A stretch of DNA of 64,000 nt, taken from contig NC_057718.1 of the NCBI RefSeq assembly GCF_004010195.1, positions 77,268,202 through 77,332,201 on the forward strand, in the 5' to 3' direction. The number at the start of each line of letters is the position of its first letter. Within the stretch, counting starts at the first letter, position 1. The notes under the pieces are model-generated. The model was given only the letters and a program-made list of their open reading frames with translations. It did not search any database and had not been told where the DNA came from. This document shows positions 2,090-58,935 of the stretch, piece by piece. The position numbers and the translations under genes were made by a program. The DNA comes from Chiloscyllium plagiosum. Its lineage: Eukaryota.

Positions 2090-4940
2090 TTTCTTACACC
2101 CTAAAAACAATGATAATAATATTGGATCATTGCAGATATCAGTAACGCAGCTCATTACTTCTCTACATTGCATATAATGGGCTAATGGACATGGAGGTTA
2201 TAAAGGAAACTGATAGGACTTACTGGATCTCACAAGAATGAGTTTGAAAAGTAAATTCAAAAGAAAAATGTCACATATCACATTGTAGCTTTAACTACAA
2301 CTAAGAGACTGGAGGTAAACACTGATGTGAGTGAAGAAGAAAAAATAGAGTAGATGAGAGGTATGAAGAGTTTTTGTCTAAAGGGAAGATAACACCCTTT
2401 TTCTTCAAATTAAGCATCTAAGCTAATACAGTATTAGGGGCTACTGAAGCTGTCTTTCTGGAGAAAGATTTATTTTTCTCTCTGGAGAGTTCAGTGAAAG
2501 CCAATGTGTTAGTAAACGGAATATGGGAAGAGTATATCCCAGTTCCATTCCATAAAGGTCACTTGCAGTGTGACTCGTTGTCTGGTCTAGTGGTAATCAG
2601 GGTAGTTAAGAAATTATCTGTAGATGGGGTTGATTTACTCCTGAAAAATGACTTAGCAAGAGTGAAAGTTATAGATCACCTATAATCATGGAAAGCCCAA
2701 TTGAGACTAATGCATTGGAACAGTTGCAGAAACAGTTATGGGGATTTTTCCATTATCTGTGGTAACTTGAGCAATGACTAAAAAAAGTCCATCATCAGAG
2801 GTCACAGTAATATCACAAGCAGATGTTAAGGTAGCTGACATTCTATTTAAGAAGAAGACAGTTCAAAAGAAGTCAAGAAGTGTGGAGCTGGAAAAGCACA
2901 GCAGCACAGGCAATATCTGAGGAGCAGGAGAATTGATGTTTCAGACATAAGGCCTTCATCAGGATGAGGGGATTATGCCCAAAATATTGATTCTCCTGCT
3001 CCTCAGTTGCTGCCTGACCTGCTGTGCTTTTCCAGTGCCACGCTTTTTGACTCTGATCTCCAGCATTTGCAGTTTCTCCGAGTTGAAAAGAAGTGTTTGG
3101 CATGCCTTGATTATTTGAGACTCAGGATGAGGCTGAAGGGGTTCTCGAATACTATTATATTAAAAATAGAGTTCTGATGAGAATATGAAACATTCTTACA
3201 AATCTGCAGATGAAGAATGGGTGGTTGTTCATTAAATAGTGGTACCATATCTGCCCAGATATGGTAATGAGTTATTATGAGCAGCGCATTAAATTCCTGA
3301 GTGGACAAAACGGAATACAGAAAACATAAGCATTGATTAAATGGTATTTTATATGGCCAAGACTTCATAAAGATGTAATGCAGTTTTGTAAACATGTCGT
3401 ACATCATAGGTAGGAGGGAAACCTCAACATATAAACAAACCAGCACCTTTGATAGCCAAAGCAGTTTTTGAAGACCATTTAGACATGTTTGAGGAGATCA
3501 TATAGGACTATTACTGAAAATGAAAGCAGAACATCAGCATAACTTTGTAATATGGGTATGACAACCCAAGTCCTAGAAGGTATTCCTTGAGGTTGTGGTG
3601 GAAAAGTTAGTGCAGTTTTTAAACTCATTATGAACTATCAATTGAGATACCATCTGACCAGGGTTTTAACTTTACGCCTCAAGTTTTCCAGGAATTCATC
3701 AGCATTTGAGTATAAACAATTGAATTCAACTATGTATCATCTGCAAACCATGGAGCTTTGGAGAGATGCATAAGACTCTCAAAGCAATGATTAACAAATA
3801 CCCACAGAACTAGGACAAAGGATTAGGTTTTTGTGATTTGCTAACAGAGATCCCAAATGAATCTATTGGATTTAGTCCATTTGATTTGGGTCATGGTCAT
3901 GAAATCAGATTTCCATTAAAATTGAGAAGTTTTTGAACCAAAACAATGAATCCTAACAGTTGAATTAAATGTCCATGTTTCTAGAAAGACTCGCAGGTAA
4001 GATAGCACAGTGAATATGAAAGTTTCACAAGTAAAATGAAAGAATGTGCAGATAAACATTCAGCAACTGGAATGTTTCAAGTGGGCAAGGAAGTATTGAT
4101 GTTGTTGCCTTGGTGAGATTAACTTCTAAAAGTCAAATAATTTGTCCATGCAAAGTAGTTAGGAGGATTATTAAAGTGATTTATTTGACGTATACTCCTG
4201 GTCATAGGAAAAATAATGGATTATTGTCACATAAATATGGTGAGAAAATATCATTGTAGGGAAGAGGATAAGGAGGAACAAGTGTGTCAAATGATAGGAG
4301 TAGTGGAAAATGACAGACAATAAGGCAAGGTTGACAGTTCTCAAAGCAAACCTCCTATAATTTGACAAGCTAACACAGAAATAATGGGTAAGTTACACAC
4401 TGTGTTTTCACATTTAGAGGAAGCACAAAGGAAGATCTTATAAGACTACTGAAAAAGTATAAGATAATCTGTAGATATGTCTGGACGTACAACATTATCT
4501 AATCATGATGTGGTAATAAGAGTTACAGGACCAATGGAACAGCATCCTTACCAGTTGGACCCAGAGAAACAAAATTAAGTGAAAACAGATTCAGCATGCT
4601 GGAAAACCACTTGATTGAACCAAGTCCAAGCAGCTGGAATCCAGCAGTAGTGTTGGTTCCTAAAAGTGATGGATCATCCCTAGATTTCAAATAGATTTTA
4701 GAAAAATAAATGTAGTGATGAAGACAGGTTCATATCAAATTCCATGATTGGAAGAGAGTATTGATGGGATTCACATTCCTTTCTGAGAATGATCTATTGA
4801 AGGGGCAAAGATAATTTCCATTAGTATCGAAATCTAAGAAAATATCCACTTTTGTTTCACCAAATGGAATCTACTAGGGACAAGTGATGTCATTTGGACT
4901 ATGGAGTGCCCCAGCTACATTCCAGATGCTAGACCAGGTT
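2090..4940 (+). mobile_element. Heavily decayed Gmr1-like Gypsy pol (protease, integrase, then RT)
   Basis: DGVDLLLKNDLA (protease end, ~2620-2660); integrase-like sDQG and YH.QT..HKTLKAMI (~3650-3800); RT motifs IEPSPSSW..VLVPKSDG and MSFGLWSAPATFQ (4610-4930). Many stops. Confidence 0.75.
2874..3080. mobile_element. Short hairpin Penelope-derived insertion with degenerate hammerhead motifs
   Basis: Inverted arms; 14-bp TSD agttcaaaagaagt (2860-2873) / agttgaaaagaagt (3081-3094). Confidence 0.8.
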
Positions 4941-4989
4941 CAAGTCATAGTTAGGGTTTATAACTATGTGGTGGAGGAAAACACTCTGT

Positions 4990-6160
4990 GTTTTTCAGAT
5001 TGGAACCCTGTGAAGAGTGGTGTACTGCAAGGATCAGTGCTGGGTCCACTGTTTTCCGTCATTTATATAAATGATTGGGTGTGATATGTAGGAGATATGG
5101 TTATTAAGTTTGCAGATGACACAAGAATTGGTGGTATAGTGGACAGTGAAGAAGCTTATCACGAGTACAATGGTACCTTGATAAGATGGGCCAATGGGCC
5201 AGGGAGTGGTAGAAAGAGTTTAGTTCAGATAAAAGTGAGGTGTTGCATTTTGGTAAGGCAAATCAAAGCAGGACTTACACAGTTAATGGTAGGGTCCTGG
5301 GGAGTGTTGCCAAACAAATAGACTTGGGCTGCAGATAAATAGTTCCTTGAAAGTGGAGTCGCAGATAAACAGGGTGGTGAAGAAGGTGTTTGACATGCTA
5401 CTTTTATTGAGCAGTGAATTGAGTATAGGGGTTGGAGGTCATGTTGCAGCTGTAACAGAACATCGGTGAGGCCACTTTTGGAATACTGAGTTCAATTCTG
5501 ATCTCCCTGCTATAAGAAAAATGTTGTTAAACTTGTCAAGGATGTTGCCAGCATTGAAGGATTTAAGCTAAAGGGAGAGGCTGAGTAGGCTGCGGCTATT
5601 TTCCCTGGAGCGTCAGATGCTGATGGCTCATCTTATAGAGGTTTTTAAAATCATGAAGGGCATGGAAAGGGTGAATAGCAAAAGTCTTTTTCCCAGAATA
5701 CTGGAATCTAAAACTGGAGGGCATGGGTTTAAAGTGAGAGGGGAAAGATTTAAAAGGGACCTGAAGGGCAACTTTTTCACACAGAGGGTGGTGTATATAT
5801 GGAATGAACTGCCAGAATATGTGATGGAGATGGGTAAAATTACAACATTTAAAATGGATCTGGATGGGTACATGAATAGGAAGGGTTTAGGGGGAAGGCA
5901 AAAGTGAGTACAGAAGATGCTAGAGATCAGAGTCAAGATTAGAGTGGTGCTAGAAAAGCACAGCAAGTCAGGCAGCGTCCAAGGCGCAGGAAAATCGACA
6001 TATCGGGCAAAAGCCCTTCATTAGGAAAGGGTTTAGAGGGATATGAGCTAATTGCTGGCAAATGGGACTAGATCAGGTTAAGATATCTGGTCAGCATGGA
6101 CAAGTTAGACTGAGTAGTCAGTTTCTGTATTTTACAACTCTGTGACTCTTATGACTCTGT
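4990..6160 (+). mobile_element. CR1-clade LINE 3' fragment, with a short Penelope-derived insert at ~5894-6022
   Basis: SGVLQGSVLGP, KFADDT and FFTQRVV..WNELP motifs; (actct/atgact) tail. Confidence 0.9.
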
Positions 6161-6429: not shown

Positions 6430-6880
6430 AGCCCTGAAGAAGGGCTTATGCCCGAAACATCGATTCTCCTGTTCCCTGGATGCTGCCTGACCTGCTGCGC
6501 TTTTCCAGCAACACATTTTCAGCACTAACTGCATGATGTCAGTTTCTGCACCAGCTAAGATTACCATGAAGGTGTGCCTTCTCAACCTCGCCCCCTCCCC
6601 GAAGCATGGTGACCCTCAGGTTAAACTCACCGTTACTCATCGCCTACTAACAAAAGAGCAGCCTATTCTCTTCTGGGACAATAGTGACTACTTTTACTGA
6701 TGTAAGGTGTAGGTGTAAGATTGACATATCACACAGTAATACAGGAGAAAGTGAGGACTGCAGATGCTGTAGATCAGAGTTAAAAAGTGCTGAAGAAGGG
6801 CGTATGCCCAAAACGTCAATTCTCCTGCTTCTCGAATGCTGCCTGACCTGCTGTGTTTTTCCAGTGCCACACTTTTCTAC
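6430..6880. repeat. Two short Penelope-derived fragments with hammerhead-like motifs, flanking an unclassified retroposon tail (~6520-6690)
   Basis: ctgaagaagggcttatgcccgaaacatc at ~6434 and a degenerate copy at ~6790. Confidence 0.7.
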
Positions 6881-7570: not shown

Positions 7571-8225
7571 TGTTCTGATTTACTTATCAAGAATTCTTCC
7601 AGCAGGTTATGTGACAGTTTGATACATGTTAATGAAGTGAAATCTGAAAGTAATAAGGTAATTAACAAGCTATGATACCCTTTAATAGGCAACTGGTCAC
7701 TCCCGAGCAAGAATCTCATCTCAATGTATGGAACTTCGTCAAAAGATGGAGCAAGTTGTTCCCATCATCAAGATAAACCTTGTTCGACTTTTCATGTAAC
7801 TCTGCAACATTTCTCACCATAGCCAATGTCAGGCCCAGAAGATTCCGCTGGTCAGGCAGCATCCGAGGAACAGGAAAATCGACAGTCTGGGCAAAAGCCC
7901 TTCATCAGGAGTGGCTGAAACATCGATTTTCCGCTCCTCGGATGCTGCTTGACTTGCTGTGCTTTTCCAGCACCACTCTAATTTAGACTCTGAGTTCCAG
8001 CATCTGGAGTCCTCACTTTTGCCAAAAGATTCCGCCCCATGTTTCAGTTCATCATATTCACCAGTGTATTCAGCATGAGGTCTTTATTGAAAAGAACTTA
8101 AGCTGTCTGTCTACAGTGTGCTTCATGGCAGATGGCACATGAATTTGGCAAACATTTTTGCAAAAATAACATTTTTGTACTATTGTGTTTCAGTGCAAAC
8201 ACACTTTTTGGGAGCTTTACAAAAG
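7570..8225 (-). mobile_element. Possible very decayed hAT (Charlie-like) transposase relic
   Basis: Minus-strand CAICHEAHC (cf. HCxIHQEALC) and HWLW*EMLQSY (cf. RWLSRGxML). Weak. Confidence 0.35.
7849..8025. mobile_element. Short hairpin Penelope-derived insertion
   Basis: Perfect 10-bp TSD aagattccgc (7839-7848, 8026-8035); inverted arms around ttcatcagga. Confidence 0.85.
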
Positions 8226-8227: not shown

Positions 8228-10849
8228 TTGAGAGTGTGGTGCTGGAAAAGCATAGCAGGTCAGGCAGCATTCAAGGAGCAAGAGAATCGACGTTTCGGGC
8301 ATAAGCCTTTCATCAGGAATGAGGCTCATGGGCTGGGGGCTGAGAAATAAATGGGAGGGGGTGGGGGTGGGGGGAAGGTAGCTGAGAATGCAATAGGTAG
8401 ATGAAGGTGAGGGAGAAGATAATAGGTCGGAGAGGAGGTTGGAGCAGATAGATGGGAAAGGTGTGGACCGGTCAGGAGGGCGGTGCTGAGTTGGAGGCTT
8501 GGGACTGGGATAATTTGGGGGGAGGGAAAATGAGGAAACTGGTGAAATCCACATTGATCCTGTGTGGCCTGAGATGACAAGGCAGGTGACAAGGCAGAAT
8601 ATGAGGCGTTCTTCCTCTAGGTGTCAGATGGTAAGGATTTGGAGATGGAGGAGGCCCAGGACCTGCATGTCCTTGGCGGAGTGGGAGGGGATGTTGAAGT
8701 GTTCAGCCATGGGGCAGTGGGGTTTGTTGGTGCAGATGTCCAGAAATGTTCTCTGAAACAATCCACAACTAGGCATCCTGTTTCCCTGATGCAGAGGAGA
8801 CCACATTGGGTGCAATGGATACAGTTTGGCGCACTGACTTCTACACCACTGAAGCCAGGCGCCAACTCGCAGACACCTCCTCTTACTGCCCCCTCGACCA
8901 CAACGTCACCTCCCATCATCAAACCAATATCTCCCAGACCATCCACAACCTCATCACCTCAGGGCATCTCCCATCCACAGTCTCCAACCTCATTGTCTGT
9001 GAACTCTACATTGCCCGATTCTACCGCATACTGAAGATTCACAAACCTGACTTCCCCAGTCGACCCATTGTCTCAGCCTGCTCCTGTCTCACTGAACTCA
9101 TTTTTGAATACCTTGACACCATCCTGTCCCCCTTAGTCTAGGAACTCCCCACCTATGTTCGGGACACCACCCACGCCCTTCACTCCTCCAAGATTTTCGT
9201 TTCCCCAGCCCCCAATGCCTCATCGACACCAGGGACATCCAGTCCCTGTACATATCCATCTGCCACGACAAAGGCTTCCAGCCCTCCGTTTCTTCCTCTC
9301 ACATTGTCCCAATCAGTACCCTTCCACTGACACCCTCATCCGCCTGGCTGAACTGGTCCTCACCCTTAACAACTTCTCTTCCAATCCTCCCACTTCCTCC
9401 AAACCAAAGGGGTAGTCATACACACCCGCATAGGACCCAACTATGCCTTCCTCTTTGATGGGTCTGTGGAACAGTCCATCTTCTGCAGTTACACCGGCAC
9501 CACACCCCACCTATTCCTCCGCAACATCGATGACTGCATTTCCTCGTGCTCCCATGAGGAGGTTGAACAGTTCATCAAATTTAGTAACACCTTTCACCGC
9601 AACCTCAAATTCACCTGGAACATCTCAGACACCTCCCTCTCCTTCCTGGATGTCTCCATCTCCATCTCCGGCAACCGACTAACCATGGATGTCTACTACA
9701 AACCCACCAACTCCCACAGCTACCTAGCCTACACCTCCTCCCACCCTATCTCCTATTAAAAAAAGCCATCCCTTATTCCCAATTCTTCTGCCTCTGCCGT
9801 GTCTGTTCCAAAGATGACCAATTCCACCTCAGAAAATTCCAGATGACCTCCTTCCAAGATTGCAATTTCCCTTACCATTGGTTGATGATGTCCTCCAGCG
9901 CTTCTCTTCCACTTCCTGCACCTCCGCCCTTGAACCCCATGCCTCCCAACGCAACAAGAACAGAACTCTCCCTGGTCCTCACCTTCCACCCTACCAACTT
10001 CTGCCATAATTGCATCATCCTTTGCCCCTTCTGCTGCCTATAAACGGACCCCACCACCAGATATATTTTTCCCTCCCCGCCCCTATCAGTGTTCTGGAAA
10101 GACCATTCCCTTCTTGACACCCTCACCGGACCCACACTCCCCATCAGCCCACACCTCACTTCTGTCCAAGGCCCCCAAAGGATCCTTCCACATTCGACAG
10201 AAATTTACCTGTACCTCTGCCAATGTTATCTATTGTATCTGTTACACCCAATGTGGTCTCCTCTACATTGAAGAGACAGGATGCCTACTTGTGGATCATT
10301 TCAGAGAACATTTCTGGGACACCTGCACCAACCAACCCCACTGCCTCGCAGCTGACACTTCAAGTCTCTCTCCAACTCCGCCAAGGACATGCAGGTCCTG
10401 GGTCTCCTCCATCACCAAACTCTTACCACCTGACGCCTGGAGGAAAAACGCCTCATATTCCACCTTGGCAACCACACAGGGTCAAAGTGGATTTCACCAG
10501 TTGCCTCATATCCTCTCCCTCCAAATTATCACAATCCCAAGCCTCCAACACAATACCACCCTCCTGACTTGTCAATCACCTTTTCCATTAATCCACTCCA
10601 CCCTCCTTTCCGACCTATCACCTTCTCCCTCACCTTCATCTACCTATCGCATTCTCAGCTACGTTCGCACTAACCCCACCCCCTCCCATTTATCTCTCAG
10701 CCACCCCAGCCCACAAGCCTCATTCCTGATGAAGGGCTTGTGCCCGAAACATCGATTCTCCTGCTCCAAGGATGCTGCCTAACCTGCTGTGCTTTTGCAG
10801 CACCACACTACCGACTGATCTCCAGCATCTGCAGTCTTCACTTTTGCCT
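8228..10849 (+). mobile_element. Penelope-like retroelement (RT + GIY-YIG), 5'-truncated, with an inverted 3'-end copy at 8228-~8825
   Basis: KIHKPD.P.RPIVS, LFLRNIDD and VYYKPTN RT motifs; FTCTSANVIYCIC..CGLLYIEETG GIY-YIG motif. TSD agctttacaaaagag (8213-8227) / agctttatacaagag (10850-10864). Confidence 0.92.
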
Positions 10850-13329
10850 AGCTTTATACAAGAGGCCTGAGTTTCTGTATGAAATAAGTCTTGTGTATTT
10901 AGATGCATGTTCTCGGCTTGCTGTCCATATTGCATGAAATTTTAGGCCACTGATTTCACATGTTGCAACCCTAAAACCTAACAGTCTTGGGGACAAGGCC
11001 TGGGCAGCAAGTTTGGTTGGCAGTGCAAGGAACAGAAACAGCATCAGAAGTCAACACTTTAACTTCCTATATAGCTGAAACACAGATTACTTGCAGATAT
11101 TTGGAGTAGATACAGTCACAAAATAATAGGATTCCATGACAGAGATTGAAGGTTTTATTTACTAGTCGAAATGTTTGACCCATTAACAAAACATGTGCTT
11201 TAAAGGTGCATCATCACAGAAAGGGCACACTTTATGTTTATGACTCCACTATTTAAATTGTAAGATTTAAACATGTAGAATAAATGTAGAAATGCATTTC
11301 CTTTAAAATGGATGTGAATTTAAAATGGTGAGGTTGGACACTGAAAGCTTGCATGGAACATGATAATATCCTGAAACTGGAATTTGAACCAAAAATGACT
11401 GCACCAAACATAAGTAGATGCGTACTCCACTGCATGTTGTTCCTTCTACTATGGTGTTACTTCTATTTTTCTAAATGTCGGGTTGCACCTGAACTGGAGG
11501 GGCAACAATACCCTGGGCAGGAGGTTTGCAAGAGCTCTTCAGGAAGGTTTAAACTAGTTTGGCAGGGGGGTTGGAACCAGAGCTACAGATCTGAGGAAGG
11601 CATAGGTATTGAACAGTTAGATACAACATGAAGAGATCTGTGATGAGGGATAGACAGTTGATAGGGCAAAGTTGCAGTCAGTATGATAAGTTGAAGTATG
11701 TCTATTTTAATACAAGAAGTATCAGGAATAAGGGTGATGAACTTAAGAGCCTGGATCAGTAGATGGAATTAAGATGTTTGGCCATTACGGAGACTTGATA
11801 TCACAGGGGCAGGAATGGTTTATTGGATGTTCCAGGGTTTAGATGTTTCAAAAGGAATTGTGGTGGGGGTGAATGGGGGGTAAAAGAGATGGGGGAATGG
11901 CATTGCTAATCAGCCACAGGATCATAGCTGCAGATAGGGAGGTGGCGAGAAGGGTTTGTCTACATAGTCAGAATGGGTGGTAGTCTCAGAAATAGGAAAG
12001 AAGCAGTTACTTTATTGGGAGTTTTCTATAACTCCCCCACCCCCACCCCAATGGCAACAGACACGGAGGAGCAGATTGGGAAGAAGATTTTGGAAAGGTG
12101 CAGAAATAACAGGGTTGTTGTCAGGGGTGACTTTAACTTCCCTAATATTGATTGGAACCTCTTATTTCAAATAGTTTGGATGGAGTAGTTTTTGTCAGGT
12201 GTGGCCAGGAAGGATTAGATAGATTGACGAAAGGGGAGGCCATATTGGATTTGATGCTTGGCAACAAACCAGGCCAGGTGTCAGATCTGTCAGTGGGAGA
12301 GCATTTTGGTGATAGTGGTCACAATTCCCTGACCTTTACTATAGTCATGGAAAGTGATAGGAGCAGACAATATGGGAAAGTATTTAATGGGGTGGGGGGG
12401 GGAATTATAATGCTATTAGGCAGGAACTGAGGTGCCTAAATTGGGAACAGATGTTCTCATGAAAATGCACAACAGAAATGTGAAGGTTGTTTAGGGAGAA
12501 CTTGTTGATAGTACTGGATAGGTTTGTCTCACTGAGGCAAGGAACGGATGATAGAGTGAAGGAACCTTCGGTGACAAGGGATGTAGAACTTCTAGTTAAG
12601 AGGAAGAAAGATGCAGACTTAAGGTTCAGGAGGCAAGGATCAGACAGGGCTTTAGATGGTTATAAGTTAACCAGAAAGGTACTGAAGAATGGACTTAGGA
12701 GACCTAGAAAGGGGCATGAAAAAACTTTAGCTGGTAGGATTAAGGAAAACACTAAGGCATTATACAATTTCGTGAGGAACAGGAGGATGGCCAGGGTGAG
12801 GATAGGGTCAATCAGAGATATTGGAGGGTACTTGTGCCTGGAGTCAGAGGAGGTAGAGGAGGTTCTTAATGATTACTTAACTTCAGTATTCACTACTGAG
12901 ATAGACCTTGTTGTTTGTGAGGACAGCATGGAACAGTTGATGTTAAGAAGGAGGATGTGCTGAAAATGTTGAAAAACATAAGGATAGATAACTCCCCTAA
13001 GCCAGATGGGATATATCCAAGGTTACTACGAGAAGCGAGGGAAGAGTTTGCTGCACCTTTGGTGATGATCTTCGCGTCCTCACTGTCGACTGGATTAGGG
13101 CCAGATGATTGGAGGGTGGTAAATGTTATTCCTTTGTTCAAGAAAGGGAATAGGGATCATCCTGGCAGATAATGACCAGTCAGTCTTACATCCGTGGTAG
13201 GTAAATTATTGGAGAAGATTCTGATAGACAGGATTTATGATGACTTGAAAACCATAGTTTGATTAGAGGTAGTCAGCATGGCTTTGTGAGGAGCCAGTCA
13301 TGCCTCACAAGCCTTATTGAATTCTTTGA

Positions 13330-13924
13330 TTCGGAGATGCCGGTGTTGGACTGGGGTGTACAAAGTTAAAAATCACACAACACCAGGTTATAGTCCAACA
13401 GGTTTAATTGGAAGCACACTAGCTTTCGGAGCGACGCTCCTTCATCAGGTGATTGTGGAGGGCTCGATCGTAACACAGAATTTATAGCAAAAATTTGCAG
13501 TGTGATGTAACTGAAATTATACATTGAAGAATTGATTGCATGAATTTATGTAAAACTCTGTTATCTCACTTTTTAGATTGGAATCAATCTAAACATCAGA
13601 TCATAGACAGAGAACACAGGGGGCTAACACCTTCAACATATTGTCTAGCTATCACCATTGTTAACAGCTAACCCGAGAATGCAACTTTAAAAAAAAGGTT
13701 TTGTGATTTACACATGAAAGAAGTGAAACTATCACTGTATTCTAACAGATGAAAGGCTTAACAGACAATCAATTCTTCAATGTATAATTTCAGTTACATC
13801 ACACTGCAAATTTTTGATATAAATTCTGTGTTACGATCGAGCCCTCCACAATCACCTGATGAAGGAGGGTCGCTCTGAAAGCTAGTGTGCTTCCAATTAA
13901 ACCTGGTGTTGTGTGATTTTTAAC
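13330..13924. mobile_element. Hammerhead-bearing inverted-repeat element (second Penelope-type pLTR family) inserted in CR1
   Basis: Perfect 12-bp TSD tgaattctttga (13318-13329, 13925-13936); inverted arms ~13364-13538 and ~13766-13924, each with CAC-CTGATGA-AGGAG..CTC(C/T)GAAAGCTA-GTG. Confidence 0.88.
13853..13887 (+). ncRNA. Minimal hammerhead motif (cleaner mirror copy on the minus strand at ~13417-13451)
   Basis: CAC-CUGAUGA-AGGAG..CUCU-GAAA-GC-UA-GUG; stem I CAC/GUG, palindromic AGCU stem III. Confidence 0.65.
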
Positions 13925-15179: not shown

Positions 15180-15345
15180 CAAAACTCTAGCTTTTAGAGC
15201 ACTGCTCCTTCACCAGGTGCTAGTCCCTAATGAAGGAGCAGTGCTGTGAAAGCCAGTGTTTTCAAAAAAACCCATTGGACTATAATCTGGTGTTGTGTGA
15301 TTTTTGACCTTGTCAACGCAGAACAACACTGGCATCGCCACATCC
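15180..15345. repeat. Degenerate short copy of the 13330-type hammerhead element
   Basis: gctccttcaccagg / taatgaaggagcagtgctgtgaaagc inverted pair followed by ggactataatctggtgttgtgtgattttt. Confidence 0.7.
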
Positions 15346-15625: not shown

Positions 15626-15760
15626 ATACAAGAAACACAAACTTTAAATCAGAGTTCAGCACTCAGATCGCAAGAGAGACCTCCTTCAGGCTGTAGGAGT
15701 CGCAGTGCAACCCCAAGGGGAAGGAAGACTCCACTGGATAGTTTTGACCTTGAACAGAAG
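15626..15760 (+). CDS. CENPJ-family gene, internal exon (IQETQTLNQ...RSRSATPRGRKTPLDSFDLEQK)
   Basis: ttttaccacag| acceptor, AAG|gtttgc donor, 135 bp open, phase 0-0, in frame with the downstream TCP-domain exons. Sequence is not conserved enough to recognise alone. Confidence 0.7.
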
Positions 15761-15799
15761 GTTTGCATTTTTTATTGTCGCTGTTAGATCTCAATGTAT

Positions 15800-16915
15800 T
15801 TTCTCAATGAGAGTCTGAGTCGCTGGGCAGATTTCTGGTGACCTTTATTTACTTCATTACAGTAAAAAGCAAGGCACGAAGGCATGAAAAAGCACACAAA
15901 CTTCAGAATGTCTTATTTCATATATGTTAACTTAGAGTGCACATGCCACCACCATCACCACCCCCCCCCCCGCCCTTGATTACTATTAGTCAGCAGTACC
16001 GAGTTGTCACTCTGTGATTGGCTTTCTCGTACAGCATCATTACTGAGATGGACAGGTTCAAGGCCTAATCATGGTCCTTCATGATGTTCTTGAGGCTTCA
16101 ATGGTTACTGTCCGAGTAATATTTGCCAGAACTTCCAATTAATTAGGTCAAGAATTTTAAACTTATTATTAAAGGGAAAACAAAAGAATGTTGACATCTG
16201 ATCAGTTCCAACAGTTATGTGGTTTAGCACATCCCAATTCACATTCCAATATCTTAAGATAGAAAAGGGACCTAATGGGCAACTTTTTCACACAGAGGCT
16301 GGTGCGTATATGGAATGAGCTGTCAGAGGAAGTGTTGGAGACTGGTACAATTATAGCGTTTAAAAGACATCTGGATGGGTATATGAAAAGGAAAGGTTTA
16401 GAGGGATATGGGCCAAGTGCCGGTAAATGGGTCAAGATCAGGTTAGGATATCTGGTCGGCATGGATGAATTGGACCGAAGGGTCTGCTTCCGTGCTGTAC
16501 ATCTCTATGACTCTAAGTGAACGAGACAGAGAAAGACTTTTCTTGCTGCACTTGCTGAACTAATTGTTAACTATTTGTGGTCTTTTATGAAGTAACTCAG
16601 ATCTAGAGTTATTGATTAAACAACTCATTAGTGTGAGGTAGTCAAAAGTGCTATTGCTCAAATGTTGTTATCTTATGTGTTAGTTTCAAATGTTCTATGA
16701 AAAATAGCCAAATGTTGATAAATGTTATATCTTCTTTTGCATCAGTTACAACTCAAGAAAATGTTGCTGTCAGCAATAGTTGTAGGCAGCCCTAACAGCC
16801 ATTTTGTGTATGGGCACCCCTAACTATCATTTTATGTTACTCATTTATGGGCATCCCTAACAGCCATTTTGTACTACTCAGATATGGGCAACCCTTACAG
16901 TCATTATTGTTGGTT
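15800..16915. repeat. Unclassified interspersed repeat (same family as 41832-42644), with a CR1 3' fragment at ~16260-16515
   Basis: Shared blocks tcaatgaga..., aaaagaat.ttgac.t.tgatcagttccaaca and tgttg..gtcagcaata; ~36-bp tandem units at 16785-16905. Confidence 0.6.
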
Positions 16916-17673
16916 TCCTTAATAAACTAAGTATTTGACTCTGAATCAGTCTGTAATTTGAAACTAAACATTAGCCAAGCACAACAATGTGGACCAGAAC
17001 GTGAAATTTCTGACCATATATACATTTTTCTCAAAGTGGGCCAGAAAAAAAAATCCTCCAGCTTTCGTTTATTTAGTTTCTTTAACTTCAACAACTTTTG
17101 AATATGGAAAATCTAACCACTCAGGCTTCAGCACATTTTGCTTCATAAAGTAAAAACAGTACATTGAAGGAAGATTGTAGTTAATTGTTTTGTGCAAATA
17201 TATACTTGTACTTTTTAAAGTTTATGCGTGATGTGTAAGTCCAATTAATAAGATGGTGTCAGCATTATTATAGTCAAAATAACTCATCAAATTATTGAAA
17301 AAAAATCACATTGATTTTACCTAGAATGTATTCATTCGTGTTCTAATTAATTTGTTGTAAACCATAATCTCATTGATAACCTTTGAATATCCAAAATATG
17401 GTTTCATTATCTACATAGTAAAAACAGAATACTGGGGATAATTTACTTGTATGAAAATGGTATGGATCAGGAGGAGAGACAAAGAACAGCCATTCAGTAA
17501 TGTATTTCTAGCATCACTTTCCACCAATATGATTTCGCTGATGTGATCTTCCTTTAAAGCTGTAACCTAACTATCGCTTTGTTTCAGGGTTCCTCACTAA
17601 TTGTTGTCCTTTGATCTCCAACCACAGTGCTTTATCTTCAGCTAGCTGTAAGAAATTATTTTCAATTTTTCAG

Positions 17674-17778
17674 ATTTCACGGCCCAGCTCTGTTTTATCA
17701 AGAAAAGAGTCTACTTATTTTAAGAGGAAAGTTACAAATAATAATGTCAGAGAGGAAATTCGGTACCCAGATGGCAAG
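17674..17778 (+). CDS. CENPJ: CENPJ-family gene, internal exon (ISRPSSVLSR...EEIRYPDGK)
   Basis: tttttcag| acceptor, AAG|gtaaat donor, 105 bp, phase 0-0. Ends in EIRYPDGK, resembling human CPAP EISHPDGK at the start of the TCP domain. Confidence 0.88.
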
Positions 17779-20092: not shown

Positions 20093-20230
20093 AAACCAGG
20101 TCATGTGACTTATCTCTGAAAGTGTCTCGATTCAAGCCAATTGTTCTTTGCAACTGCAACACTAACAATCTGGTTGCTGATGTATCCAGGATTTTGTTTC
20201 TTTACAAAACCATTCTTTTCACAAATTTCA

Positions 20231-41069: not shown

Positions 41070-41300
41070 TCCTCCACTGACCCCACCCCAGTCTGACCTA
41101 TCACTCTCACCTTGACCTCTTTCCACCTATCACATTTCCGACGCCCCTCCCCCAAGTCCCTCCTCCCTATCTTTTATCTTAGCCTGCTGGACCAACTTTC
41201 CTCATTCCTGAAGAAGGGCTAATGCCCGAAACGTCGATTCTCCTGTTCCCTAGATGCTGCCTGACCTGCTGCGCTTTTCCAGCAACACATTTCCATCTCT
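41070..41300 (+). mobile_element. Penelope pLTR fragment with intact hammerhead core (~41204-41238)
   Basis: cattcctgaagaagggctaatgcccgaaacgtcgattc; homologous to 38490-38700. Confidence 0.85.
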
Positions 41301-44029: not shown

Positions 44030-45570
44030 CTACCACACAACCTAGCTTCTTAGAACTGGGCATCAATGAGCTGCTGTGGGCCATCAGCAGCCGCAGAATT
44101 ATACTCTCGCATCTATAATCTCATAGTCTGACATATCCTGCACTCTACCATTACCAACAAACTAGCAGATCAACCCTGGTTCAATGACGAGTGTAGGTAA
44201 GCATACCAGGGGAAGCAAAAATGAAATGCAAACCTGGTGATGCTATATCACAGGACTACTTGAGTGCCAAACAGAATATACAGCAAAAGATAGAGCCAAG
44301 AGATTTCACAACCATTAGATCAGCTCTAAGATCTGTAAGCTCTATATATGGTAGTAAGTGATGGGCAATTAATTCACTAGAGGAGGATACTCCACATATT
44401 CCGAATATTCTCATTCTCAATGATGGGGGAGCCCAACACATCAGTGCAAAAATAAGTCTGAAATATTTGCAAATATCTTGCCAAAGATGCCAGTGAATGA
44501 TACACCTCTGCCTTCTTCAAGGTTCTCAGCATCATAGGTGCCAGTCTTCAGTCAGTTTGAATCACTCCATATGTCATGAAATGGCTGGAGGCACTGGATA
44601 CTGCAAAAACTATGGACCCTGGCAAATTATTAGCAATAATACTAAAGATCTATGCTCTAGAACAAGCCGTGCCTCTATCCAGTTGTTCCAGTACAATTAC
44701 AACACTGGTATCTACTCAGTAGTGCAGAAAATTGTGCAAATATGTCCTGTACTCAAAAATCAGGACACATCCAACCTGTTCACTAACTACCCCACAAATC
44801 TAAATTAAATCATGAAGTGATGGAAGAGTCATTAACAGTGCTATCAAACAGTTGTTGCTTAGCAATTAACTGCTCACTGAAGCTGTTTGGTTTCCACCAA
44901 GCATGCACAAAGGAACTGAACTTCAGAGAGTGGTGAGAATAACTGCCTAGGTTCTGCTGCATTTGGACATAGACTGGAACATTTGAGCTGCCCAAGTACA
45001 GGCAATGACCATCTCAAGTAAGGAAACCTAACTATTGCCCTTTGACATTCAACGAAAAAACCATGACATTCTCCACTATCAACATCCTGGGAACCACTAT
45101 TGACCAAAACTGAACTGGAGCAGCCATAAAAATACTGTAATTATAAGAGCAGGTCATAGGCTAAAACTATTACAGCATGTAGTTCACCTCCTGATTCTCC
45201 AAAGTCTGTCCACCATCTACAAGACACAAATCAGGAATGTGATGAAATACTCCCAGTTGTTTGGATGAGTGTAACTCCAACAACTTTCAAGAAACTTCAT
45301 ACTACTTAGGATAAAGGAGCCCACTTGATTTGTACTATATTCATAAACATTCACTCCTTCCATCACTAACACACATTAGCAGCAGTGTGTACCGTGAATA
45401 TGATGGTATTCACCACGACTGCTCAGGCAGAATCTTCCAAACCCATGACCACTACCATCTAGAAGGACAAGTGCAGCAGATATATTAGATCGCCACCAAC
45501 TGCCAGTACTTCTCCATTACAGTCACCATCCTGATGTGGAAACATATCACTATTTCTTTACCATCACTGG
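44030..45570 (+). mobile_element. Decayed CR1/L2-group LINE ORF2
   Basis: DQPWFN, IPNILILNDG, ICPVLK and KSVHHLQDT (cf. LSTIYKAQ) fragments; 3' end shared with 35635-36190. Confidence 0.7.
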
Positions 45571-46235
45571 ATCAAAATCCTGGATGATGCCCATTCATCA
45601 GCACTGCTCTTTTGTTCTCTCCTCCTCACTGTGAGGACATTAGAGATTTTGTGATAGTGCTGTCAGATCATTAGTTCAGACTCCAGAATTTGACTTCTGG
45701 GGGTAGTGCTTGTTCTTCCATGACATAATAGCTTCTCACCAATGCTGCAGCACCACATCGGTCAACTAAGTTGCAGTTATTCTTCAGTGTGGCTTATCTT
45801 TAAGAAGTAGCCTGCCTTTTAGAATAGCAGATTAGGTGTGTCCTGATGTTTCTGAAAAGCTACTGGTCTTACCTCAGTTGAATGAAGAGGAAACTAGCTG
45901 TTTTAAGGAGTAGCCAGCGCTAAACCTACTTGCCAGATGCTACAATCACGTAATGAGGTAGATCCAACAAATTTTCAAGCTGTTCATACTCAATTAGAAT
46001 TGGCTTTTGCAGGCTGCAGACCATGAACCCTGTGTCTGAAAGTCAGAATAACCAAATTTCGCGTCCACAGTTTCAAGTTCACGTATATGGAAAAACAGGA
46101 AGCAAGATACAGGCACCCCTGAACCAAGGTTTGCACTTGAGTAAATGTATGCACGAGTGGAGGGGAAAGCATCAAGAAAGAAAATGTTTTTAAAATGACA
46201 GTTTAAAATAATTAACATGTTTTGAACTTTTGTAG

Positions 46236-46320
46236 ATTTATTACTATGCCGATGCAAAGACGACTCATACTACATACCCAAATGGAATGGAGATGTTACA
46301 GTTTCCTAATAACCAGATAG
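46236..46320 (+). CDS. CENPJ: CENPJ-family gene, TCP exon ([28 protein letters not shown])
   Basis: ttttgtag| acceptor, G|gtaggt donor, 85 bp, phase 0-1. IYYYA..TTHTTYP motif of CPAP. Confidence 0.95.
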
Positions 46321-46959
46321 GTAGGTGCCTTAATGAAGCTATAGTCAATTATGTCAAATTTATGCTGTATTGGAGAGACAAAGAATGATTTAATATCACT
46401 GAAAACAGATTCAGTTGGAAAATTAAAAATCTTGCTGTTTTGAAGATTTGGGGTTGATCATTGCTTTCCTTAGGGCTCATGCCTTACATTTTAGGTTTGC
46501 ACTCCATTTTTTTTGTGTGCCCTTTCTCTGCCCTTTCTCTCTTTAGTTCAAGAAAGATTGCCAATGGGTTGAAGGTGAATTCTGAGCTTTTCCTAAAACT
46601 GTAACTATTTTTATTGCCCTTTGCTGATACTCCATTTAATTGTCTGCATATCTTTAAGATCATCTGCATATTGACATCAGTTCCTGAACCAGCATGCTTC
46701 TTCCACATATCTAAGTATGTACCTGGAGCCATGAATAATTATCTTAATAAGCTGACTACAAAGAGATTGAGTTGAATGTTTGGTTCAAATTTACTGCTAT
46801 TACAAATATTTCAGGTTTAATCTGAATATGTATTGGAAGTTTAGATGTGTATGTCAAAAACTATTCAACTGTGTAATATCACACATCAAGGGAAACATTT
46901 ATAAAAAATGCACAGTGATTTGAAGCATCTTGAAACATAGTAACTGCTGTATGTTGATC

Positions 46960-47770
46960 ATCATCAGCAGCAATCATTCAATAACCCATGTCCAGGCAAG
47001 GTCTGGTCATTCCTTCTATTCCCAGTGTGGAGCATTTCATTGGTCTGGGGAACTATCTCTCATCTAAAGCTGATATCTATGTGAGATCCAACACTGCATC
47101 CAATCTGTGGGCACTGACTTTGGAAACCTAAGGATGAGAGTCTTCAACAGCCATGCCATCCATGTTACTAATATCCTTGTTTATCTTTGAGTTCTGATTC
47201 TTCTGTATGGCACCAAACCTTGGACTATGTTTAGATGCCACCTCAAAAACCTTGAGAAGTACCATCAATATTTTTAAAAATAAATTATCCACATCAGCTG
47301 GGAGGATAAACATACTAACATCAGCTTCCTTAAAGCAGCTAACAGCAGCAGCATTGCGGCCATTATTATTCAAAACCAACTCCACTGGGCCGGCCACGTG
47401 CTTAAGATATCTGAGTTCTGAACACAAAAGCAAATCTTACTCATCCACTGACGGAAGGCAGTTGAATGAGAGGAGTACAAAAGAAAGCATTTCAAAGGTT
47501 CCCTGAAGGCTTCCCTCAAGAAATGCAACATAGACGCCATTGCTTGGAAGATCCTCATTCAGTGGAAATTGTCTTGGAGTAACCTCCTGTACAATGGGAC
47601 ACAATTCTTTGTGAGTACCTGTCAGCAAGAGGAAGTATGGGAAAGGAACTGCAGAAAGAAATGCCAGCGATCTCAAGGTGAAGAACCAACTCTGCCTCCT
47701 GGAAACACTGCCAAGTGTGGCTCTCCAGCTCCAATTTAACATCTAAACCCAAAGGCAAGTTCACTGACAA
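46960..47770 (+). mobile_element. RTE-clade LINE 3' fragment
   Basis: Frameshifted TLEKYHQ..IIHISWEDKHTN, NQLHWAGHV and SLKASLKKCNID motifs. Confidence 0.8.
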
Positions 47771-48136
47771 CATCAAATATCCTCCTTACCATACTGAAAT
47801 TACAACCTGATTATGTGCTATCTCTCAAAGTGAAGTTTGAATCAACATCTACTATCTGCTAAGATATCTACCACTTAAACCAAGTTATTATTCTGACACC
47901 AACCTATCTGCATCTTATGTCCACGTTCATGCACTTCCAACAGGTGAAAACAAGGCCCCTCCCTTGCTGAGGGGGCTGTAATTGATGCCAAATATCATAA
48001 AATGGAAAATTGGCAGGTGAAGTTGCACATATTGGTCTTTACAATGCTGTTATTTCTTGAACTTTCTTTTAAAATGGTTTTCAAAAAACAATTTTCTTAT
48101 AATTTTGGTTGAATGTTGCTATTTTTTGTTTTACAG

Positions 48137-48257
48137 AAAAGCATTACCCTGATGGTAAGAAGGAAATAATATTTCCGGACCAGACAGTTAAACATCTTTT
48201 TCCTGATGGTCGGGAAGAGAGTATATTCCCTGATGGAACAATAGTGAATCTTCAAAA
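48137..48257 (+). CDS. CENPJ: CENPJ-family gene, TCP exon ([40 protein letters not shown])
   Basis: ttttacag| acceptor, AA|gtaagt donor, 121 bp, phase 1-2. PDG repeats of the G-box. Confidence 0.95.
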
Positions 48258-49273
48258 GTAAGTGTATTTCTCCCTTATTTTACCCTCAGGTTTGTGTATT
48301 TCTCCCATTTCACGATGGAAATTAATGTTTTTCTCTCTTATTCACTTAGGGTTGTTTTATTCACATACCTATTTCATGTACTTTCAATTCTTGTTTGAGA
48401 TACATTTTGCTCCTGTCTTCCGACCCAACTGGTCCAAATTACTCGATAGCTTTTCCTTGCCAACTCATTGTTCATTAGTTCTTATGTATATTCTTGTCCT
48501 GAAAATACTGATTGCTTCTTATGAAGTTATCATATTGTTTTAATACTATATTGATGATTAAATCATTTTCAAAATATTAATGGCAGACAAATGCATCTTA
48601 GAACACTGGAATGGTTACTTGTCCAGTTATCCACTTGGAAGTAAACAAATTCCACAACTTACATCCTTTCCTGTCAGATCCTGTAACCTGTCATTTCTAC
48701 TTTTCCAGAACTCCATTGGTTTTCTGTGATCCAGGAAACTAACTACATTAAACATCCTTGCTTTGCTTTAATTTCTCCATGCCATGCAATATAATACCTA
48801 AGCTCTCTAAAACAAAAATAGAAATTGCTGGAGAAACTCAGCAGGCCTGGCAGCATCTGCAGAGAGAAAGCAGAGTCAATGTTTTCAATGACCCATCTTC
48901 AGAACACCTCAGCTCTCTATTCTAGCCATACATCTTCACATTGGTTCTCCATTATTCTGATTACTGTCAGATTATTCTTTATTCACCACTCCCTCCATTG
49001 TTATTAATGGAATTGTCTTGGAGTAACCTCCTGTACAATGGGACACAATTCTTTGTGAGTATAGACTTATCAAGATTCTGGTTATTGTTTTTAAAATATT
49101 GGCTAAAACATTTAGCTGTAACAATACCAGATGGTGCCCCATAAAACAGCTATGGCAATATTAAATATTCAATGCACATAGAACCTCATTATCTTTCCCA
49201 AAAAGTTATTGCTTTGGTGTAAAATATGAAAATCACAATGTGTTCAGTTTCTGAATGTTTGATTCTTTCTAAG

Positions 49274-49463
49274 CAATGGAGATAAAACTATTGAATTCAA
49301 CAATGGACAGAGGGAGATCCACACATCACAGTATAAACGCAGGGAGTACCCTGATGGAACCATAAAGACTGTATATTCTAATGGGCGACAGGAAACAAAG
49401 TACTCCACAGGACGAGTCCGAATAAAAGACAAAGAAGGAAATATCATTCTTGATAAAAAGTGA
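49274..49463 (+). CDS. CENPJ: CENPJ-family gene, last coding exon ([62 protein letters not shown])
   Basis: ttctttctaag| acceptor, phase matches the previous exon, TGA at 49461-49463. Close similarity to the CPAP C-terminus. Confidence 0.95.
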
Positions 49464-57430: not shown

Positions 57431-57534
57431 ATATCCTTGCGTTGTATAGCACTGTGCTATGCCAATCTCACACCTATATCATGTGCAAACAATTTATGTG
57501 GCAAACACAGTACGTGCATGTCAGCTAGGTATTT

Positions 57535-58935
57535 TGCAGATGCTGGAGATCAGAGCTGAAAAATGTGTTGCTGGAAAAGCGCAGCAGGTCAGGCAGCATC
57601 CAAGAAGCAGGAGAATTGACGTTTCGGGCAAAGGCTCTTCTTCAGGAATGAGGAGGGTGTGCCAAGCAGGCTAAGATAAAAGGTAGGGAGGAGGGACTTG
57701 GGGGAGGGGCGTTGGGAATGCGATAGGTGTATGGACGTTAAGGTGAGGGTGATAGGCCGGAGAGGGNNNNNNNNNNNNNNNNNNNNNNNNNNNNNNNNNN
57801 NNNNNNNNNNNNNNNNNNNNNNNNNNNNNNNNNNNNNNNNNNNNNNNNNNNNNNNNNNNNNNNNNNNNNNNNNNNNNNNNNNNNNNNNNNNNNNNNNNNN
57901 NNNNNNNNNNNNNNNNNNNNNNNNNNNNNNNNNNNNNNNNNNNNNNNNNNNNNNNNNNNNNNNNNNNNNNNNNNNNNNNNNNNNNNNNNNNNNNNNNNNN
58001 NNNNNNNNNNNNNNNNNNNNNNNNNNNNNNNNNNNNNNNNNNNNNNNNNNNNNNNNNNNNNNNNNNNNNNNNNNNNNNNNNNNNNNNNNNNNNNNNNNNN
58101 NNNNNNNNNNNNNNNNNNNNNNNNNNNNNNNNNNNNNNNNNNNNNNNNNNNNNNNNNNNNNNNNNNNNNNNNNNNNNNNNNNNNNNNNNNNNNNNNNNNN
58201 NNNNNNNNNNNNNNNNNNNNNNNNNNNNNNNNNNNNNNNNNNNNNNNNNNNNNNNNNNNNNNNNNNNNNNNNNNNNNNNNNNNNNNNNNNNNNNNNNNNN
58301 NNNNNNNNNNNNNNNNNNNNNNNNNNNNNNNNNNNNNNNNNNNNNNNNNNNNNNNNNNNNNNNNNNNNNNNNNNNNNNNNNNNNNNNNNNNNNNNNNNNN
58401 NNNNNNNNNNNNNNNNNNNNNNNNNNNNNNNNNNNNNNNNNNNNNNNNNNNNNNNNNNNNNNNNNNNNNNNNNNNNNNNNNNNNNNNNNNNNNNNNNNNN
58501 NNNNNNNAACTCCCCCTCCCACTCCACCAAGGACATGCAGGTCCTTGGCCTCCTCCATCGCCAGACCATGGCAACATGACGCCTGGAGGAACCCGCCAAC
58601 CACAAGGGATGAACTCAGATTTCTCCAGCTTCCTCATTTCCCCTGCCCCCACCTTATCTCAGTCCCACCCCTCGGACTCAGCACCGCCTTCTTGACCTGC
58701 AATCTTCTTCCCGACCACCTCCACCCCCTCTCCGGCCTATCACCCTCACCTTAACCTCCATACACCTATCGCATTCCCAATGCCCCTCCCCCAAGTCCCT
58801 CCTCCCTACCTTTTATCTTAGCCTGCTTGGCACACCCTCCTCATTCCTGAAGAAGGGCTTATGCCCGAAATGTCAATTCTGCTCCTTAGATGCTGCCTGA
58901 CCTGCTGCGCTTTTCCAGCAACACATTTTTCAGCT
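57535..58935. mobile_element. Penelope-like element with inverted pLTRs around an assembly gap
   Basis: 57553-57766 is the reverse complement of ~58727-58936; GIY-YIG tail (HSTKDMQVLGLL) after the gap; hammerhead-like core at ~58847. Confidence 0.85.
57767..58507. other. Assembly gap (N run)
   Basis: Seen directly. Confidence 1.

What the first reader, a model, noticed from the sequence alone, without database searches (positions are those of the whole stretch)
2874..58935. More than a dozen minimal hammerhead-ribozyme motifs from Penelope pLTRs scattered through and around the CENPJ-family gene
Seen: CTGA(A/T)GA-AGGGC-N4-GCCC-GAAAC-(G/A)TC recurs. Plus-strand (gene-sense) cores that look intact are at ~6434, 10726, 21059, 38617 and 41208. 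GAAA-broken or altered copies are at ~6790, 35817 and 58847. Antisense copies are at ~2960, 6020, 7905, 8310, 33865 and 57640. Known: Penelope-like elements carry minimal type I hammerheads with a palindromic stem III, thought to cleave as dimers. Inference: several sense copies (21059, 38617, 41208) lie in one pre-mRNA and could pair through ACGU stem III, giving intronic self-cleavage.
Basis: partly seen in the sequence, partly recalled or inferred. Interest (0 to 1): 0.7.

Follow-up and report, generated by a model that had tools for sequence, protein, structure and literature searches.

The report
Penelope hammerhead stubs in shark introns
The motifs are real minimal hammerhead-ribozyme sequences on the ends of a very abundant shark jumping gene (a Penelope-like element, a kind already described); the copies in this gene's introns are likely inert passengers rather than RNA cutters, and about half of all sampled copies begin right at the ribozyme's edge, which may mark where the element's own RNA starts.

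Summary
All 14 listed motifs are present, but only 4 have a perfect core with palindromic stem III (21059, 38617, 41208 sense; 33869 antisense). They are the 3' pseudo-LTR ends of a Neptune-type Penelope-like element (RT, CX4CxxC linker, GIY-YIG). The genome holds 86,254 perfect cores, one per 41 kb, so the window is ordinary (expected 1.6, P=0.07). Intronic self-cleavage is not supported. In 1.45 Mb of introns from 7 genes, perfect cores are 25 sense vs 24 antisense. The lethal G12A change is as common genome-wide as the milder change at the same CpG (8,231 vs 8,271). Intact copies are simply younger. The dimer is predicted unfavourable, and polyA reads cross the cut site without a break (weak test). 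The core is conserved between subfamilies, so it likely serves the element. Side result: 123 of 240 copies start at -9..+3 of the core, at an initiator-like site, and only 10 at the cut site; this is likely the element's transcription start (untested). The scan noted the same kind of element before in many shark windows.

The parts
21059..21086 (+). Perfect minimal hammerhead core (C3..C17), CTGT-loop subfamily; ~93-nt stub with a 14-nt target-site duplication, inserted into an older copy at 20989
   Evidence: 100% identical to the 38617 copy over 94 nt
38617..38644 (+). Perfect minimal hammerhead core at the 3' end of a 5'-truncated, internally deleted PLE copy (~37700-38720)
41208..41235 (+). 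Perfect minimal hammerhead core at the end of a ~220-nt pLTR fragment (41083-41304)
33842..33869 (-). Perfect core, antisense to the gene, one arm of a head-to-head insertion
33783..33977 (.). Head-to-head (hairpin) PLE stub with a 14-nt target-site duplication, ending ~58 nt before the exon at 34036; predicted hairpin -146 kcal/mol
6434..6461 (+). Hammerhead copy, G16.2 to A (CpG decay), stem III not palindromic
6790..6817 (+). Hammerhead copy, G12 to A (CpG decay)
10726..10753 (+). Hammerhead copy, G16.2 to A, in the 3' pLTR of the 8233-10850 element
8233..10850 (+). Decayed Penelope-like element: inverted 3' copy (8233-8823, hammerhead 8316 on -), RT remnant (9370-9756), GIY-YIG remnant, pLTR with hammerhead and tail
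   Evidence: 82.7% over 595 nt between the arms; ORF translations; 72-79% identity to 149 other RT copies; Pfam did not score these decayed frames
8289..8316 (-). Hammerhead copy, G10.1 to A, in the inverted arm
7881..7908 (-). Decayed hammerhead copy in a head-to-head stub (7847-8023)
5997..6024 (-). Decayed hammerhead stub with target-site duplication
2935..2962 (-). Decayed hammerhead copy in a head-to-head stub (2860-3073)
35817..35844 (+). Hammerhead stub, G12 to A and C17 to U (CpG decay)
57618..57645 (-). Hammerhead copy, core kept, stem II mismatch; inverted arm of the 57535-58941 element, past the gene's stop
58847..58874 (+). Hammerhead copy, C15.2 to U; 3' pLTR of the 57535-58941 element (N gap inside), past the gene's stop
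20989..21015 (+).
   Evidence: dimer with 21059 predicted +5 kcal/mol
13420..13448 (-).
13856..13884 (+). Second-family hammerhead, C11.1 to U; inverted partner of 13448
15227..15255 (+). Second-family hammerhead, decayed
32498..32528 (+). Decayed hammerhead of an older related family
15626..49463 (+). Last six coding exons of the CENPJ-family gene: 15626-15760, 17674-17778, 34036-34176, 46236-46320, 48137-48257, 49274-49463, with AG/GT ends
   Evidence: tblastn with P0003/P0006, boundaries, upstream exons, Tcp10_C

Best explanation
The motifs are minimal type I hammerhead sequences in the terminal repeat (pLTR) of a high-copy Neptune-type Penelope-like retrotransposon, and the copies in the CENPJ-family introns are likely inert, neutrally decaying insertions that would not cut the host RNA to any extent that matters. 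Shown: the hammerhead follows RT, zinc-finger linker and GIY-YIG in long copies; 86,254 perfect cores exist; cores decay mainly through three CpGs; both strands of introns carry them equally; about half of the copies run from 4 nt before C3 to the element's 3' end or tail, often as head-to-head pairs. Inferred: the ribozyme is kept by selection on master elements, where two copies one element apart would pair through the palindromic stem III, probably with help from the element's protein. Inferred (about 0.5): the fixed 5' edge is the element's own transcription start at an initiator-like site, so that reverse transcription primed at the 5' copy of the tail runs off the RNA's uncut 5' end and leaves 90-130-nt stubs; the first 4 nt of that RNA would form helix I.
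For: PLE identity: hammerhead on the same strand 3' of the RT in 16 of 20 long copies (the other 4 had no such hit, 2 of them with an N gap there); CX4CxxC linker before GIY-YIG in L153, L041, L049 and 6 of 20 long copies; RVT_1 E=5e-7; inverted 5' copies, tails and target-site duplications as described for PLEs (PMC8557442). Ordinary density: expected 1.55 perfect cores, seen 4, P=0.072. No strand bias: 25 vs 24 perfect, 145 vs 157 all hits, 34 vs 27 intact (P=0.44). Neutral decay: G12A 8,231 vs C11.1U 8,271, P=0.76; CpG columns 22-32% changed; intact copies have 2.5% vs 6.0% flank divergence, P=3e-5. Master-level conservation: four subfamilies (94, 52, 31, 12 copies) differ only at N7, loop II, position 1.3 and flanks; pair 2.3-1.3 occurs as U.U, U-A and G-C; a second family keeps a palindrome as AGCU. 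5' ends: 123 of 240 at -9..+3, 10 at +26..+31; template match among 52 direct copies is 44, 47, 37, 36 at -1..-4, then 20 and 18; 163 RNA reads diverge just before 41204, the -4 base. Literature: no monomer cleavage and low dimer cleavage (PMC4209133); cleavage only with the element's protein, no RNA-seq ends at the site, internal priming on both DNA strands (PMC11167929).
Against: Pooled non-CpG core positions change slightly less than non-diagnostic flank columns (82/2130 = 3.9% vs 214/4247 = 5.0%, P=0.037; vs 6.1% at a looser cut, P=8e-5); the gap is not significant base by base at those cuts (P 0.12-0.90) but is not zero. Two other hammerhead families lean antisense (7 vs 13 and 16 vs 25; a third leans sense, 13 vs 6). 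The strand test has 49-61 intact copies (95% interval for the sense share 0.36-0.66 and 0.42-0.68), so mild selection would be missed; six of the seven genes are identified only by same-strand domain exons and are probably tissue-restricted. Intron cleavage need not block splicing (exon tethering, recalled, not checked), which weakens the strand test. C11.1U is not fully harmless, so it is an imperfect neutral control. The read test is weak: fragmented polyA libraries do not capture 5'-OH or cyclic-phosphate ends. For the transcription-start step: no extra untemplated G at the junction (2 of 13), no pile of RNA starts, no full-length element with a 5' pLTR found among 20 long copies, and a Poseidon-like family shows no such edge.
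Confidence: 0.85

Rival explanations
1. Sense copies in one pre-mRNA (chiefly 38617 and 41208) pair through ACGU and cut the CENPJ-family intron often enough to affect its processing.
For: Both cores are perfect and lie 2,591 nt apart in the same intron, near the ~3 kb spacing of natural pLTR pairs (PMC4209133). The heterodimer can be drawn with one mismatch. An intronic ribozyme does lower mRNA output in CPEB3 (PMC10274809, abstract).
Against: Active dimer predicted at -11.2 vs -15.3 kcal/mol for two monomers, before any loop-closure cost; no strand bias; neutral G12 decay; antisense copies in the same pre-mRNA offer far stronger ~90-bp duplexes; read depth is continuous across the cut site; poor in vitro activity of this class (PMC4209133).
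Confidence: 0.05
2. The cores are silent in normal cells but are cut when the element's own protein is expressed and binds the adjacent tail, so de-repression in the germ line would nick many host pre-mRNAs.
For: The Anolis Poseidon hammerhead cuts only with its protein, and the protein's binding region lies just downstream (PMC11167929, main text). The stubs here keep hammerhead plus tail together. 86,254 perfect cores exist.
Against: No sign of selection against sense or intact copies; protein help was shown for a different clade; all 20 long copies examined were broken or gapped, so active protein may be rare.
Confidence: 0.08
3. Rival for the 5' edge only: it is not a transcription start but a preferred point where reverse transcriptase falls off or switches template just after crossing the hammerhead hairpin.
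For: 71 of 123 edge copies are joined to an inverted arm, where template switching and trimming act; the edge is spread over several bases; no cap-derived G and no RNA starts were seen; the second family's edge is broader.
Against: A structure block should stop synthesis on the 3' side (+28 to +32), where only 10 of 240 copies start; 52 direct copies with unique flanks show the same drop after -4; an older family has its edge at the same place with another initiator-like sequence; Penelope's promoter lies in the pLTR (PMC2377424, passages).
Confidence: 0.35

Closest known systems
Minimal hammerheads (min-HHR) in pLTRs of metazoan Penelope-like elements (Cervera and De la Pena 2014, PMC4209133)
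   Same: Type I core with no loop III, palindromic 15.2-16.2, one extra base between A9 and G10.1, G10.1-C11.1 pair, 4-bp helix I, mostly single truncated copies spread through the genome.
   Different: Stem II is 4 bp here; the perfect-core count (86,254) is about ten times the largest vertebrate count given there (about 9,000 in Xenopus tropicalis, by a different method); sharks are not named in the parts I read.
Neptune clade of endonuclease-bearing PLEs (Craig et al. 2021, PMC8557442)
   Same: RT, then CX2-5CxxC linker, then C-terminal GIY-YIG; heavy 5' truncation, inverted 5' copy, optional 30-40-bp tail.
   Different: No phylogeny against named Neptune references was run; no full-length copy was recovered; about half of the copies are 90-130-nt stubs with a fixed 5' edge.
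PAc, Poseidon element of Anolis carolinensis (PMC11167929)
   Same: Hammerhead near two 3' end points (with and without tail); insertions made from uncut RNA; no RNA ends at the cut site.
   Different: Different clade (no zinc-finger linker); a pile of 5' ends at the hammerhead edge is not described in its main text or the supplement text I could search.
Intronic host ribozymes (CPEB3 HDV-like; amniote RECK-type hammerheads; PMC6765202, PMC6155905, PMC10274809)
   Same: Ribozyme motif in the sense strand of an intron.
   Different: Those are single-copy, conserved and active as monomers; these are young repeats, lack helix III and tertiary loops, and decay neutrally.
Animal non-LTR retrozymes (bioRxiv 10.64898/2026.07.22.740005)
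   Same: Non-autonomous pLTR-derived sequences with hammerheads; found in one cartilaginous fish.
   Different: Retrozymes are head-to-tail tandems; the window has dispersed or head-to-head stubs and no tandem array of them.

Membership tests
PLE minimal hammerhead (min-HHR) | CUGANGA and GAAA-N-N-UH core in type I order without loop III | tested here: met
   4 of 14 window copies perfect
PLE minimal hammerhead (min-HHR) | Extra base between positions 9 and 10.1 and a G10.1-C11.1 pair | tested here: met
   extra A in 206 of 214 copies; G-C in 147 of 207, G.U from CpG decay in 39
PLE minimal hammerhead (min-HHR) | Palindromic 15.2-16.2 | tested here: met
   ACGU in the main family, AGCU in a second family
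PLE minimal hammerhead (min-HHR) | Short helix I (4-5 bp) with covariation | tested here: met
   4 bp, one U.U in the main subfamily; 2.3-1.3 seen as U.U, U-A, G-C; few independent changes
PLE minimal hammerhead (min-HHR) | Located in the pLTR of a PLE | tested here: met
   16 of 20 long RT-bearing copies; window element 8233-10850
PLE minimal hammerhead (min-HHR) | Self-cleavage as a dimer | not testable with these tools
   needs an assay; folding predicts the dimer 1-7 kcal/mol above two monomers
Neptune-type PLE | RT followed by C-terminal GIY-YIG endonuclease | tested here: met
   motif order; RVT_1 hit; Pfam did not score the GIY-YIG (not in the frames scanned)
Neptune-type PLE | CX2-5CxxC linker between RT and endonuclease | tested here: met
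   CX4CxxC in L153, L041, L049 and 6 of 20 long copies; shared with Nematis per PMC8557442
Neptune-type PLE | RT phylogeny within the Neptune clade | not tested
   no named reference PLE proteins were on hand
Neptune-type PLE | 5' truncation, inverted 5' copy, optional tail | tested here: met
Domesticated intronic ribozyme | Core kept by selection after insertion | tested here: not met
   family-wide: G12A equals C11.1U; intact copies are younger; single copies not tested apart
Domesticated intronic ribozyme | Conserved at the orthologous place in other species | not testable with these tools
   no related genomes held; contigs laid did not span the insertions
Non-LTR retrozyme | Head-to-tail tandem units each with a hammerhead | tested here: not met
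   no such array in the window; not tested genome-wide

The most novel reading that the evidence does not exclude
The shark genome carries about 86,000 intact hammerhead cores, each beside the tail that the element's protein likely binds; they are latent cut sites in thousands of pre-mRNAs, including this one, that fire when the Penelope protein is expressed, while methyl-CpG decay at three core CpGs disarms them over time. A milder novel reading (probability about 0.5) is that the stubs record the element's transcription start and are genome-scale evidence for internal priming on uncut RNA.
Probability: 0.07. Interest if true: 0.7.

Novelty: new member of a known kind. Interest (0 to 1): 0.2.

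Why it matters
As it stands it is an ordinary repeat: a described ribozyme class in a lineage where I found no paper naming it, with nothing special about this gene. Two points have some value for specialists. The copy number gives a genome-wide test showing that the catalytic core decays neutrally after insertion, mostly through CpGs that include the general base G12. And the fixed 5' edge, if it is the transcription start, would explain the short helix I of minimal hammerheads and support internal priming on uncut RNA, a poorly understood step of Penelope transposition. If host pre-mRNAs were cut when the element's protein is present, it would be a new cost of transposon de-repression, but nothing here points to that.

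Tried and rejected
Rfam scan: no hammerhead family at E<=1. Pfam on 10 window frames: only Tcp10_C, a LINE-type RVT_1 and an integrase zinc-binding fragment; the decayed PLE frames scored nothing. Sequencing runs: no RNA holder listed. Laying X14, X15, X1, X2 on 33000-52000: CENPJ exons almost uncovered, no splice joints shown, X15 gave 0 reads, so splicing across the hammerhead introns was not tested. Search for a full-length element with a 5' pLTR running into the ORF: none among 20 long copies. Cap-derived extra G at 5' junctions: not enriched, 2 of 13 direct copies ending at -4. Idea that the 5' edge is a hammerhead cut after the upstream CUC: rejected on sequence, since 15.2-16.2 and helix I cannot pair in that register (inference). 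Idea that insertions start at the cut site: 10 of 240. A downstream promoter element at canonical spacing: the ACGU falls two bases short of the spacing implied by PMC2377424, so not claimed. The 70-nt tandem 20989/21059: dimer predicted +5 kcal/mol, rejected. Lunse et al. (PMC5785218) is not held; I know it only through the review PMC6765202. Position labels printed are shifted by two columns; one search uses the corrected ones.


Full report
Observation. Numbered as a hammerhead, each reads: 4-nt helix I strand, C3-U4-G5-A6-N7-G8-A9, one extra A, 4-bp stem II with a 4-nt loop, G12-A13-A14, A15.1-C15.2-G16.2-U16.1, C17, then the other helix I strand. Only 4 of 14 are perfect: 21059, 38617, 41208 (+) and 33869 (-). 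6434 and 10726 have lost G16.2, 6790 and 35817 have lost G12, 58847 has C15.2 to U. Six further copies of related or other families lie in the window. Rfam gave no hammerhead hit.

Host gene. The 47-residue exon at 34036-34176 is 85-98% identical to CENPJ proteins of cartilaginous fishes (best 98%, a bamboo shark protein), so the window is from a shark. Six coding exons lie on the + strand with AG/GT ends, and the gene spans about 198 kb, starting upstream of the window (a paralog lies on C6). Copies up to 41208 are therefore intronic. 21059 is in a different intron from 38617 and 41208. 57645 and 58847 are more than 8 kb past the stop.

What carries the motif. Self-comparison shows a shared 90-125-nt end, longer copies reaching upstream, and head-to-head pairs. 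The 8233-10850 element has an inverted 3' copy, an RT remnant, a GIY-YIG remnant and the hammerhead. The RT remnant drew 46,549 first-look candidates, of which 150 were scored. In 20 long copies chosen for long open frames, the hammerhead follows the RT on the same strand in 16, and 6 show the CX4CxxC linker plus GIY-YIG motif; most others have N gaps there (RVT_1). That linker marks Neptune and Nematis PLEs (PMC8557442, passages). Target-site duplications were found for 24 of 56 non-inverted stubs (one row duplicated). No tree against named references was built.

Abundance. The exact core occurs 43,103 + 43,151 times in 3.56 Gb, with 0 for the reversed control. The window would be expected to hold 1.55 and holds 4 (P=0.072). 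Cervera and De la Pena report about 4,000 and 9,000 minimal hammerheads in coelacanth and Xenopus by a structure search (PMC4209133, parts 1-2 of 4 read).

Test 1, strand in introns. If sense cores cut pre-mRNA harmfully they should be depleted. I took 1,446,461 nt (31,444 N) between same-strand domain exons of 7 genes (CENPJ plus six long Sushi- or LDL-receptor-domain genes; their identities are inferred, not checked). Perfect cores: 25 sense, 24 antisense (21 vs 21 without CENPJ). All profile hits: 145 vs 157. Of 207 hits spanning the ribozyme, intact ones were 34 of 101 sense and 27 of 106 antisense (Fisher P=0.22). Density was 35 per Mb against 24 genome-wide. Against this reading: two other families lean antisense (7 vs 13, 16 vs 25), one leans sense (13 vs 6); pooled 137 vs 150, P=0.48 (with slight double counting). 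The sample excludes only strong bias, and harmless intron cleavage would leave no bias.

Test 2, decay. Among 215 copies spanning the core and flank, three CpGs (C11.1-G12, C15.2-G16.2, C17-G1.1) are changed in 22-32% of copies, other core positions in 2-8%. G12 is the general base (PMC6155905, passages). Genome-wide, G12A single mutants number 8,231 and C11.1U single mutants, the other strand of the same CpG, 8,271 (P=0.76). Intact copies are younger by flank divergence (2.5% vs 6.0%, P=3e-5). Non-CpG core positions change a little less than non-diagnostic flank columns when pooled (3.9% vs 5.0%, P=0.037) but not base by base; against all flank columns the gap is large (11.8%), which reflects differences between subfamilies. 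Four subfamilies differ only at N7, loop II, position 1.3 and flanks, and a second family swaps the palindrome to AGCU. So the core is conserved among master elements and decays at about the mutational rate once inserted.

Test 3, folding. The active homodimer is predicted 1.1 to 7.1 kcal/mol above two monomers for the perfect copies, and the 38617/41208 heterodimer at -11.2 against -15.3, without tertiary terms or loop cost. Antisense copies in the same transcript offer much stronger duplexes. This matches reports of no monomer and low dimer activity (PMC4209133), of cleavage only with the element's protein and no RNA-seq ends at the site (PMC11167929, main text read; 3 supplement files searched as text with no hits, figures not visible), and of 1 of 9 Xenopus retrozyme dimers cleaving (bioRxiv 10.64898/2026.07.22.740005, passages).

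Test 4, reads. In one single-cell polyA run, 2,270 reads matched the 41061-41330 stretch at 85% or more, on both strands, 97% running on into other loci; depth rose smoothly across the cut site and no place of many starts or ends was listed. This is a weak test. CENPJ exons were almost uncovered.

Side result, the 5' edge. Of 302 hits, 254 aligned to longer window references, 241 were away from a stretch edge and 240 remained after removing a duplicate. 123 start at -9..+3 of C3, 10 at +26..+31 (the cut site is +28), 13 run past the 330-nt reference. 71 of the 123 are joined to an inverted arm. In the 52 direct copies the match to the element holds to -4 and falls to near background by -6; only 7 of 56 share upstream sequence with one another. 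163 RNA reads also diverge at -4. The -4 A sits in a YYANWYY initiator-like context (consensus recalled), and an older family shows the same edge; a Poseidon-like family does not. Penelope's promoter and start lie in the pLTR (PMC2377424, passages), and PAc primes inside its RNA on both DNA strands (PMC11167929). I infer that a transcript starting at -4 offers the tail twice, and priming at the first one gives stubs that end at the RNA's uncut 5' end; two such products joined give the head-to-head pairs. This is untested: no cap signature, no RNA starts and no full-length element were found.

Literature coverage. Searches: hammerhead + Penelope, 36 papers; Penelope + shark + hammerhead ribozymes, 1 paper, where 'shark' refers only to the shape; Penelope + bamboo shark + repeat, 2 listings, not read. 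PMC6765202 passages and the PMC10274809 abstract were read. Subscription papers, Repbase and the supplements of PMC4209133 were not seen and may list shark motifs. Earlier notes of this scan describe the same kind of element in at least 19 genomes; I consulted them after my tests and they add no independent support.

Verdict. Real feature, known kind, ordinary locus. PLE origin is shown; intronic self-cleavage is not supported (about 0.05, or 0.08 as a protein-dependent event). Interest 0.2.

Noticed in passing
window 33783-33977: A near-perfect 73-bp hairpin insertion ends about 58 nt before the 3' splice site of the exon at 34036; a likely double-stranded RNA and editing substrate close to the branch-point region.
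   Followed up: partly
window 20989-21175: A young stub (21059) inserted inside an older PLE end, with a 14-nt duplication of the older copy's sequence.
   Followed up: yes
window 13330-13930, 15180-15330: A second minimal-hammerhead family with palindrome AGCU; 13448(-) is intact and forms an inverted pair with 13856(+). 41 copies in the intron sample.
   Followed up: partly
L011, L013, L060, L094, L124, L136: A third hammerhead family with a longer stem II (Poseidon-like by my recall); its copies extend upstream and show no 5' edge at the ribozyme.
   Followed up: partly
G000:C6:76166398-76198983 (-): A second CENPJ-family gene, 49-78% identical to P0006 over four exons.
   Followed up: no
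window 10815-10852 and other tails: The optional tail ends in a pyrimidine run and often TAG, like a 3' splice acceptor; an intron in the element's 5' region was not tested.
   Followed up: no
window 18848-19684, 22674-24061: LINE-type RT fragments (RVT_1 E=7e-17 for the first; CR1-like by my recall).
   Followed up: no
window 27344-27652 (-): Integrase zinc-binding fragment (PF17921, E=9e-20), from an LTR-type element.
   Followed up: no
window 23336-23697, 57767-58507; L163-L181: Assembly gaps fall inside repeats, very often between the two arms or in the endonuclease region of PLE copies, which may hide full-length elements.
   Followed up: partly
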